A stretch of DNA of 63,800 bases, filler included, from Collodictyon triciliatum (taxonomy: Eukaryota): assembly GCA_043381765.1 (NCBI GenBank). It is 50 parts of 50 records of this genome, joined end to end, with 100 filler letters (N's around TTAATTAATTAA, not from the genome) between each part and the next. Parts side by side here need not be neighbours in the genome. Positions count along the whole stretch, not along the records: positions 52,436 to 53,610 come from JBHJMP010011978.1; 49 more parts are not named here. The stretch is one strand, 5' to 3'. Below the pieces are notes generated by a model. It was not told the origin of the DNA and searched no databases. It saw only the letters and a program-made list of their open reading frames with translations. A program made the position numbers and the translations under genes. Below, piece after piece: positions 52,957 through 53,080 of the stretch (the stretch's first letter is position 1; each line of letters opens with the position of its first letter).

Positions 52957-53080
52957 GACTTGAAGGATTACACCAATTTTTCGATTGGTAAACTTGGTGC
53001 GCTAGTATCCAAGGTCTCATCGCTTTTTTCACAGAGGTCGTGCAGTGGTGAAGGCTGCCAGGTGAGACCCAGCAGCCTGT
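52957..53080 (-). ncRNA. Candidate Fanzor omega/fRNA scaffold, copy C
   Basis: Non-coding, directly after the ORF end; about 15 differences in 98 nt versus 63358-63454; four inverted-repeat stems and possible pseudoknot pairing. Confidence 0.65.

What the first reader, a model, noticed from the sequence alone, without database searches (positions are those of the whole stretch)
52957..53080. Structured non-coding RNA candidate (omega/fRNA scaffold) directly 3' of the Fanzor ORF, with a possible pseudoknot
Seen (+ coordinates, RNA on the minus strand). Stem 1: AGGCTGC 53052-58 / GCAGCCT 53072-78, whose loop holds GAGACC 53064-69, complementary to GGTCTC 53013-18 outside the stem (pseudoknot geometry). 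Stem 2: 53017-24 / 53044-51 (perfect in copy D). Stem 3: CTTGG 52993-97 / CCAAG 53009-13. Stem 4: ACCAAT 52972-77 / ATTGGT 52984-89, with a loop containing GAAA on the minus strand. A 25-nt core (52995-53019) is identical in copy D. Established: TnpB/Fanzor guide RNAs come from the element's 3' end, are multi-stem with a pseudoknot in TnpB, and take their guide from flanking DNA. Caveat: some differences between the copies break pairs on the sense strand, consistent with decay; covariation is not demonstrated.
Basis: partly seen in the sequence, partly recalled or inferred. Interest (0 to 1): 0.85.

Follow-up and report, generated by a model that had tools for sequence, protein, structure and literature searches.

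The report
Decayed Fanzor guide-RNA relic
This stretch is the worn-out remnant of the structured guide-RNA region at the tail of a broken Fanzor (eukaryotic RNA-guided nuclease) gene copy, an ordinary relic that resembles intact versions carried by giant viruses.

Summary
All four stems and the loop complement sit at the stated coordinates. The whole-region fold is unremarkable (z -1.6). The two window copies show no covariation and no more conservation than the neighbouring dead coding sequence (79.8% against 79.5%).

The "Fanzor ORF" is a 5'-truncated, twice-frameshifted C-terminal fragment. About the first 60 nt of the finding lie inside the ancestral ORF tail.

The closest full-length relatives I could reach are intact Fanzor1 genes in giant-virus and metagenome contigs. 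They carry a covariation-supported RNA module from the ORF's 3' end to an invariant GGTGTAA, followed by unrelated flank.

A covariance model built only from the six closest of these loci finds window 52928-53087 (minus) as its best hit (34.3 bits). The best off-target score was 12.9 bits in 561 kb of control sequence. Copy D is the second hit.

Stem 1 (really 12 bp) and Stem 2 map onto the relatives' covarying helices H1 and H2. Stems 3 and 4 and the pseudoknot have no family support.

Verdict: a relic of a Fanzor1 omega-RNA-type scaffold, a known kind, with no sign that it is still active here.

The parts
53087..53435 (-). Fanzor1 C-terminal pseudogene fragment (copy C). It holds the RuvC-II region, zinc finger and RuvC-III motif, split over three frames. 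A premature TAA lies at 53084-53086. No Fanzor sequence lies upstream of it.
   Evidence: Three-frame translation. tblastn of P0002 and 69 other full-length relatives. P0002 matches SpuFz1 8gkh at E 9.2e-37.
52928..53087 (-). Full extent of the omega-RNA-type module as threaded on model R3.
   Evidence: cmsearch with R3: 34.3 bits, E 1.5e-07, best hit of the window. Best off-target was 12.9 bits in 561 kb of control sequence.
53052..53078 (-).
   Evidence: 12 of 12 pairs when threaded on R3, with a sequence unlike the relatives' H1. -19.4 kcal/mol and unique in the window. H1 covaries in relatives.
53017..53051 (-). H2 domain. The inner helix is 53039-53042 with 53030-53034. Copy D's stop codon aligns with 53017-53019.
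   Evidence: Outer helix 5 of 6 pairs and inner helix 4 of 4 pairs in copy C. Stem 2 is 8 of 8 in copy D. H1 plus H2 alone score 21.5 bits.
52928..53016 (-). Decayed 3' domain. The true 3' boundary is uncertain: 52968, about 52957, or about 52930.
   Evidence: R3 threading: H7 5 of 5, H4 4 of 6, H6 5 of 10, H5 1 of 4. A local hit at 52942-52978 scores 7.6 bits. GGTGTAA count in the window. C against D identity falls to 24.6% beyond 52957.
63380..63463 (-). Copy D of the 5' domain (H1 plus H2), more decayed than copy C.
   Evidence: Second-best R3 hit, 10.6 bits, E 0.27. Aligned with copy C.
63546..63710 (-). Copy D Fanzor1 C-terminal remnant. It has an in-frame stop and a frameshift and is 5'-truncated near 63722.
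   Evidence: blastn of the window against itself, translation, tblastn.

Best explanation
Window 52928-53087 (minus strand) is the decayed remnant of the structured guide-RNA (omega-RNA / fRNA) scaffold that overlaps and follows the 3' end of a Fanzor1 gene. Its nearest intact relatives that I could reach sit in giant-virus and metagenome contigs.

How it works in intact relatives (inferred from the Fanzor literature, not shown here):
- The RNA is made from the 3' part of the Fanzor transcript.
- It folds into a 12-bp hairpin (H1), an adjacent two-tier helix (H2), and a 3' domain that ends in GGUGUAA.
- It binds the nuclease.
- It uses the next 15-20 nt of flanking sequence as the guide.

In this window both copies (C and D) are attached to 5'-truncated, frameshifted gene fragments. 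Copy C still keeps H1 and H2 intact but has a degraded 3' domain. Copy D is degraded throughout. The feature is therefore a relic, not a working RNA.

Shown: homology to the relatives' module, and covariation of that module in the relatives. Inferred: that the module is an omega-RNA, and that it is inactive here.
For: - Gene context. tblastn puts Fanzor1 C-terminal pieces immediately upstream on the same strand. P0002 is a Fanzor1 by PDB sequence match: SpuFz1 at 9.2e-37 and PpFz1 at 7.2e-34.
- Relatives' motifs. 51 of the 56 related loci examined carry GATTTTAC...GGTGTAA, followed by flank that differs between distinct loci.
- Relatives' structure. On A8 (31 sequences), 90.8% of cells are paired against 39-48% when slid, with 58 double-change cells against 18.1 in shuffles, 0 of 500 reaching the observed value. 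On A11 (11 sequences), 93.3% are paired and 28 of 47 pairs have double changes, 0 of 500.
- Model R3. It was built from 6 loci and no window sequence. Its top two window hits are C at 34.3 bits and D at 10.6 bits. The next window hit scores 8.5 bits. Off-target maximum elsewhere is 12.9 bits.
- Copy C threading. H1 12 of 12, H2 outer 5 of 6, H2 inner 4 of 4, with a primary sequence different from the relatives.
- Strand. H1 is 12 bp only on the Fanzor-sense strand.
- Literature. Omega-RNA or fRNA lies at, or overlaps, the ORF 3' end and runs to the right end plus a guide. I read passages of PMC10432273, PMC11423790 and PMC10530073.
Against: - Models R1 and R2, built from the more distant subfamilies, do not find the tails at E up to 10.
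- blastn of 43 family modules hits the C tail with none of them; a single 13-nt match to the D tail (E 18) is chance level, and for 0 of 43 is a tail their best window hit.
- C against D shows no compensatory change and no excess conservation.
- The fold z-score is only -1.6.
- The 3' half threads poorly (H5 1 of 4, H6 5 of 10), and its register conflicts with an exact GGTGTAA at 52968-52974.
- R3 rests on 6 sequences (effective number 1.23) and a shortened calibration, so its E-values are rough.
- There are no expression data. No sequencing run holds the locus.
Confidence: 0.72

Rival explanations
1. The stems are chance features of decayed coding sequence and 3' UTR in a dead Fanzor fragment, and there was never an RNA element here.
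For: - Fold z is -1.6, and 12 of 200 shuffles fold as well.
- The opposite strand folds as well.
- There is no excess conservation and no covariation between C and D.
- R1 and R2 are negative.
- Rfam gives nothing above gathering score; the best is ToxI at 23.9 of 50 bits.
Against: - R3 scores 34.3 bits at exactly this place, and copy D is the second hit.
- The off-target maximum is 12.9 bits.
- H1 is the only hairpin of its kind in the window.
- The homologous position in relatives covaries.
Confidence: 0.1
2. Copy C is a still-working solo guide-RNA locus, like the ORF-less 'ghost loci' of Spizellomyces punctatus, that serves an intact Fanzor1 encoded elsewhere in the genome.
For: - Copy C keeps H1 12 of 12 and H2 9 of 10 pairs although its ORF is wrecked.
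- Ghost loci with conserved omega-RNA are described in passages of PMC10432273.
- A natural relative, L009, has a collapsed 3' domain, so short scaffolds exist.
Against: - Conservation in the tail equals that of the dead coding part.
- The 3' domain and terminal motif do not thread well.
- No intact Fanzor is present in the window.
- No expression data exist.
- Copy D is clearly decaying.
Confidence: 0.1
3. The conservation in relatives reflects the protein's C-terminal tail and a transposase-recognised DNA end, not an RNA.
For: - H1 and H2 lie in coding sequence in the closest subfamily.
- The terminal GGTGTAA could be a DNA end motif.
Against: - There are many compensatory double changes in H1, H2 and H3 across relatives.
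- The stop codon sits at different places relative to the helices in different subfamilies while the helices persist.
- Published Fanzor RNPs carry RNA from this region (passages in PMC10432273 and PMC10530073).
Confidence: 0.05

Closest known systems
SpuFz1 omega-RNA (Spizellomyces punctatus Fanzor1; Saito et al. 2023, PMC10432273)
   Same: It belongs to the same protein family; P0002 matches 8gkh at 9.2e-37. The RNA lies at the 3' end of the gene on the same strand. The scaffold ends at the right end and is followed by a variable guide. There is no pseudoknot.
   Different: [quoted passage not shown] Here, and in the closest relatives, the first helices lie inside the ORF tail. I did no sequence or model comparison with the SpuFz1 RNA, because its sequence is not among the sequences I may use.
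GtFz1 and PpFz1 omega-RNAs (Xu et al. 2024, PMC11423790)
   Same: The GtFz1 omega-RNA overlaps the last 17 codons of the ORF. Architecture downstream of the first stem-loop varies, and PpFz1 has a minimal second stem, comparable with the collapsed 3' domain of L009.
   Different: Published SL1 has seven base pairs in all three structures. Here the first helix is 12 bp and the seven-pair rule could not be mapped.
ISDra2 TnpB omega-RNA
   Same: It is derived from the 3' end of the gene and the right end, overlaps the ORF, and takes its guide from flanking DNA (established knowledge, and passages of PMC10432273).
   Different: The TnpB omega-RNA has a pseudoknot. The pseudoknot proposed here has no support from the family model.
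Giant-virus / metagenome Fanzor1 3' module
   Same: R3 places copy C in this family at 34.3 bits. H1 lies directly next to H2, as in the P0002-type loci.
   Different: The window copies are dead. Their 3' domain and terminal motif are degraded or rearranged. Models from the more distant subfamilies miss them.
S. punctatus 'ghost loci' (ORF-less inverted repeats plus omega-RNA)
   Same: The 3' RNA region is kept without a working nuclease gene.
   Different: Ghost loci are strongly conserved (legend passages of PMC10432273). Copies C and D are 20% diverged, with no excess conservation.

Membership tests
Fanzor1 omega-RNA / fRNA | Lies at or just beyond the 3' end of a Fanzor gene, on the same strand | tested here: met
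   Fanzor1 C-terminal remnants lie at 53087-53435 and 63546-63710 on the minus strand, directly upstream. The gene is a pseudogene fragment.
Fanzor1 omega-RNA / fRNA | Conserved scaffold that stops at the element's right end, followed by variable guide sequence | tested here: inconclusive
   This is clear in relatives: 51 of 56 loci end in GGTGTAA followed by unrelated flank. In the window only two copies exist, and the boundary is 52968, about 52957 or about 52930 depending on the register.
Fanzor1 omega-RNA / fRNA | Secondary structure kept by compensatory change | tested here: inconclusive
   Met in relatives. Between C and D, 0 pairs have double changes. Copy C against relatives gives H1 12 of 12 pairs with a different sequence, but on an alignment fitted to the model.
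Fanzor1 omega-RNA / fRNA | RNA is expressed and bound by the nuclease | not testable with these tools
   No sequencing run holds half or more of the stretch's words. The 22 rows that hold any part of it have shares of 0.13 to 0.19, which I take to be words of the simple repeats in the 1175-nt stretch I sent, though I did not lay any run to check.
Fanzor1 omega-RNA / fRNA | Partnered with an intact RuvC nuclease gene | tested here: not met
   Copy C has two frameshifts, a premature stop, NGF in place of NEF/DEF at RuvC-II, and no N-terminal 485 residues.
Fanzor1 omega-RNA / fRNA | First stem-loop of seven base pairs (Xu et al. 2024) | tested here: inconclusive
The relatives' H2 inner helix is 7 bp in one subfamily. 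Which helix is SL1 is unknown.
   34.3 bits, the top hit. The next unrelated window hit is 8.5 bits and the off-target maximum in 561 kb is 12.9 bits.
More distant giant-virus Fanzor1 module subfamilies (models R1, R2) | Scores above noise with the covariance model | tested here: not met
   No minus-strand hit at the tails at E up to 10. R1 does find P0002-type loci at 22.7-36.9 bits.
TnpB-type pseudoknotted omega-RNA | Pseudoknot | tested here: inconclusive
   GGUCUC with GAGACC can pair, 6 of 6 in C and 5 of 6 in D. It competes with the upper half of H1 and with H2, and is not in the family consensus.
Any Rfam family | Reaches the gathering score | tested here: not met
   The best match is ToxI at 23.9 bits against a gathering score of 50.

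The most novel reading that the evidence does not exclude
The Fanzor fragments in this eukaryote-like window belong to a Fanzor1 lineage otherwise seen, in the collections I could search, only in giant-virus and metagenome contigs. Copy C, whose H1 and H2 helices are fully intact beside a wrecked gene, could be a surviving solo guide-RNA locus. It would serve an intact virus-derived Fanzor1 elsewhere in the genome, or one brought in by an infecting giant virus.
Probability: 0.08. Interest if true: 0.6.

Novelty: new member of a known kind. Interest (0 to 1): 0.3.

Why it matters
The locus itself matters little: it is a dead copy of a known kind of element. Two things are useful. First, it shows how a single decayed locus can be assigned to an RNA family through intact relatives found by protein, when the copies at hand are uninformative. 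Second, the relatives give a covariation-supported structure model for a large giant-virus-associated Fanzor1 clade: H1, H2, a small hairpin, and a closing helix ending in GGUGUAA. That model could help define scaffolds for members that have not been tested.

Tried and rejected
All copies in the genome therefore could not be collected.
- The 23-nt core is absent from viral, metagenome and prokaryote-genome contigs.
- Sequencing-run search: 24 runs were listed and 0 hold half or more of the words. All shares are 0.19 or less, most likely words of the simple repeats in the stretch I sent; no run was laid to check. Read laying was not used for that reason.
- Pfam and PDB searches with the short window fragments gave nothing significant.
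- Test for terminal inverted repeats between the right ends (C, D) and the left regions of copies A and B: scores were no better than shuffles. Copy B's left end is hidden by an N mask.
- Models R1 and R2 were negative on the tails. blastn of 43 modules gave no hit in the C tail and one 13-nt chance-level match (E 18) in the D tail.
- Two hand-made descriptors each single out this region.
  - P1 is GTCT..CACC...AAAAAG..AGACC. It matches 22 of 43 family modules, gives 1 window hit at 53068-53013, and 0 of 200 shuffles have any match.
  - P2 is AGAC, a hairpin, TTTAC, then GGTGTAA. It matches 29 of 43 family modules, gives 1 window hit at 53017-52968, and 2 of 500 shuffles have any match.
  - Their gap ranges were widened after I had seen the window. 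P2 in its first form did not match the window at all.
  - They also imply a register that conflicts with the unbiased R3 alignment: the pseudoknot as H2, Stem 3 as the relatives' small hairpin, and the right end at 52968. I therefore treat them as weak.
- Searches for closer relatives with the D5-like ORF and with P0001 in viral contigs found none. A 30-residue query was too short.
- An alignment of 21 Fanzors was too diverse for the search for related loci, so I used a 6-sequence alignment instead.
- Structure prediction, fold search, complex prediction and the protein atlas were not used.

Full report
**What is at the coordinates.**
- Stem 1: 53078-53072 with 53058-53052.
- A GGUCUC in the Stem 1 loop (53069-53064), complementary to GAGACC at 53018-53013.
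- Stem 2: 53051-44 with 53024-17, 6 of 8 pairs in this copy and 8 of 8 in the second copy.
- Stem 3: CUUGG with CCAAG.
- Stem 4: ACCAAU with AUUGGU (pair counts).

The proposed pseudoknot arm overlaps Stem 2 by two bases and Stem 3 by one, so the model as written is not self-consistent.

**Is it more than chance when taken alone?** Mostly not.
- The 130-nt region folds to -32.7 kcal/mol, z -1.61, and 12 of 200 shuffles do as well.
- Copy D gives z -1.98. The opposite strand of copy C gives z -1.95.
- Rfam has nothing above threshold.
- The one unusual item is that Stem 1 extends to a 12-bp hairpin (-19.4 kcal/mol). It is the only non-repetitive hairpin of 12 bp or more with at least 5 G-C pairs in the window on either strand. 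It reaches 12 bp only on the Fanzor-sense strand, because two pairs are G-U.

**The gene next to it.**
- The window looks eukaryotic, with 36% G+C and many microsatellites. It carries a regular mask of paired 44-N runs. No whole genome is held for it.
- The 'Fanzor ORF' is a fragment. Three minus-strand frames between 53435 and 53087 carry, in order, GDWS..MKHFMPT, the RuvC-II and zinc-finger region, and the second CxxC with RDxNSAxNI. There are two frameshifts, and NGF stands where relatives have NEF.
- Upstream of the fragment lie a microsatellite and a cytochrome P450 exon.
- tblastn with 70 full-length relatives finds no Fanzor sequence between 53435 and 63300.
- A second C-terminal fragment, copy D, lies at 63356-63722 and is 80.6% identical over 377 nt.
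- N-terminal fragments (copies A and B) lie at about 5189-5560 and 49886-50983.

**The two copies say nothing for structure.**
- Identity is 79.5% in the coding remnant, 82.8% at 53086-53023, 80.0% at 53022-52968, and 79.8% over the finding as a whole.
- The 25-nt identical run is matched by a 26-nt run in the coding part. A run that long is expected about one time in four.
- No pair changed on both sides. Three changes are absorbed by wobble pairs and six break pairs.

**Part of the finding is old coding sequence.**
- Copy D's frame stays open from RDFNSANNIL for 38 more codons, to a TGA that aligns with 53017-53019 of copy C.
- The tblastn alignment of P0002 runs straight through copy C's TAA to 53054.
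- Stems 1 and 2 therefore lie in the ancestral C-terminal tail.

**Finding relatives.**
- A full HMMER search with copy B's 160-residue piece gave 311 proteins at E up to 0.001. The closest full-length one is P0002, 634 aa. It matches both the N-terminal and the C-terminal fragments of the window.
- P0002 is a Fanzor1 by sequence match to solved structures: SpuFz1 at 9.2e-37, PpFz1 at 7.2e-34 and GtFz1 at 7e-16. Pfam's TNB domain is only marginal.
- Protein-guided scans then fetched DNA around relatives: 10 metagenome loci, 5 viral loci, and 61 viral loci with a 6-sequence alignment. Many of these are giant-virus MAG contigs.
- By tblastx, the window's copy C is closest to the P0002-type loci L006, L001, L004, L020 and L007.

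**A conserved RNA module in the relatives.**
- I examined 56 loci whose ORF end was on the contig. I dropped 11 loci cut by contig ends and 9 that repeat a contig already taken.
- 51 of the 56 carry GATTTTAC followed 51-95 nt later by GGTGTAA. After that motif the flanks of distinct loci are unrelated.
- Three of the five regex misses are found by model R1 at 107-133 bits.
- On 31 well-aligned sequences, a five-helix structure has 90.8% of cells paired against 39-48% when the partner is slid. It has 58 double-change cells against 18.1 in shuffles, with 0 of 500 shuffles as high.
- In the six P0002-type loci, RNAalifold adds a 12-bp hairpin (H1) inside the ORF tail, directly followed by a two-tier helix (H2). 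Both have compensatory changes.
- The stop codon sits in different places relative to these helices in different subfamilies. That argues for an RNA constraint rather than a protein one.
- The position, the overlap with the ORF end and the variable flank match published omega-RNA or fRNA. I read passages of the following papers:
  - PMC10432273: a 75-nt SpuFz1 scaffold plus a 14-15-nt guide, a 17-codon overlap in GtFz1, and no pseudoknot.
  - PMC11423790: a seven-pair SL1 and a variable remainder.
  - PMC10530073: conservation reaching into the coding region.

**Does the window's tail belong to that module?**

Results against:
- Model R1 (31 sequences of the more distant subfamilies) and model R2 (43 sequences) give no minus-strand hit on either tail at E up to 10. 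R1 does find the P0002-type loci at 22.7-36.9 bits.
- blastn of 43 modules finds nothing in the C tail, and only one 13-nt chance-level match (E 18) in the D tail.

Results for:
- Model R3 was built only from the six P0002-type loci.
- It returns 52928-53087 (minus) as the best hit of the whole window, at 34.3 bits and E 1.5e-07. Copy D (63380-63463, minus) is second at 10.6 bits, and the next hit scores 8.5 bits.
- As a control, across 280.7 kb of loci searched on both strands, every R3 hit above 12.9 bits is a true module at the 3' end of a Fanzor ORF. The more distant subfamilies score 12.6-36.2 bits there.
- The 5' half alone scores 21.5 bits. A local piece of the 3' half scores 7.6 bits.
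- Caveats: R3's effective sequence number is 1.23 and its calibration is shortened, so the bit scores and the empirical control carry the argument, not the E-value.

- H1 is Stem 1 extended, 12 of 12 pairs, with a sequence unlike the relatives' H1.
- H2 outer is Stem 2, 5 of 6 pairs. H2 inner is 4 of 4 pairs.
- A hairpin AUCCU/GGGAU at 52964-52968 with 52952-52956 is 5 of 5.
- The closing helix is 4 of 6. The other 3' helices are 1 of 4 and 5 of 10.
- Stems 3 and 4 fall in a stretch the model treats as insertion or unpaired, and the pseudoknot is not in the consensus.
- With copy C included, the fitted alignment has 93.3% of cells paired and 28 of 47 pairs with double changes. That alignment leans towards the model.

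**The 3' boundary is unresolved.** There are three candidates.
- 52968. An exact GGTGTAA lies at 52968-52974. The motif occurs 6 times in the window on both strands, against 4.2 expected. One relative, L009, has a naturally collapsed 3' domain. Together these suggest a short scaffold ending here.
- About 52957. C and D remain alike for 11 nt past 52968.
- About 52930. R3 threads the module collinearly and at the relatives' length to this point.

They were tuned after I had seen the window, so I give them little weight.

**Verdict.** The finding is a real but dead member of a known kind: the relic of a Fanzor1 omega-RNA-type scaffold. Its 5' helices are intact in copy C and its 3' domain is degraded. 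It is attached to a gene fragment that cannot make a nuclease. That the module acts as a guide RNA is inferred from the literature and from anatomy. Expression could not be tested.

Noticed in passing
window, whole length (e.g. 52336-52379 and 52392-52435; 53611-53654 and 53667-53710): There are 98 N runs, arranged as pairs of 44 N separated by 12 bases and recurring every 1,273-1,285 nt. This looks like a regular mask rather than assembly gaps. It hides the left end of Fanzor copy B and part of the region upstream of copy C.
   Followed up: no
L001-L076 (giant-virus MAG and metagenome contigs): A large Fanzor1 clade carries a covariation-supported 3' RNA module. It has an H2 two-tier helix, a 5-bp hairpin that holds the stop codon in one subfamily, and a closing helix UUACAyy/rrUGUAA, and it ends in an invariant GGTGTAA before unrelated flank. 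The P0002-type subfamily adds a 12-bp hairpin inside the ORF tail.
   Followed up: partly
L009:4816-4914 (also L015, L021): This is a natural variant in which the whole inner 3' domain is replaced by a 5-nt loop (UUUUACA-5 nt-UGUAA), next to an apparently intact ORF. It would be a very short scaffold.
   Followed up: no
L003:1648-1685, L004:1642-1680, L005:1642-1680 (minus strand): There is a recurrent weak R3 hit (8.8-12.9 bits, model positions 112-150) about 1.3 kb upstream of the Fanzor start in three related loci. It may be an inverted partial copy of the right-end hairpin, that is, a left-end repeat.
   Followed up: no
window 58757-60034 (+): A long ORF matches DUF5906 at 7.7e-14 and weakly matches the VapE-like domain, so it is a D5/primase-helicase-like P-loop protein. 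No close relative was found in viral contigs. It may belong to a virus-like or Polinton-like insertion between Fanzor copies C and D.
   Followed up: partly
window 5189-5560 and 49886-50983 (minus): Two N-terminal Fanzor1 fragments (copies A and B) share their 5' region, including the start codon. Copy B covers about residues 3-337 of P0002 in three pieces, then breaks off at an N mask.
   Followed up: partly
window 49600-49785 (minus) and 26014-26874 (+): A similar peptide (GFCIIK...TTAVLN.KG..RSRRP) appears just past the break of Fanzor copy B and again in a 286-aa ORF. It is probably another repeated element that interrupts copy B.
   Followed up: no
window 54182-54469 (minus): This is a cytochrome P450 C-terminal exon with the heme-binding FGGGRFQCPG motif (Pfam 8.2e-09), upstream of the truncated copy C.
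   Followed up: no
window 10158-11537: A 54-nt tandem repeat occurs in 21 copies and is open in several frames on both strands.
   Followed up: no
window 52957-53349 against 63334-63722: 46 of the 72 substitutions between copies C and D are transitions. In the ORF-tail stretch, copy D mostly has A or T where copy C has G or C. This is compatible with deamination-type decay of repeats.
   Followed up: no
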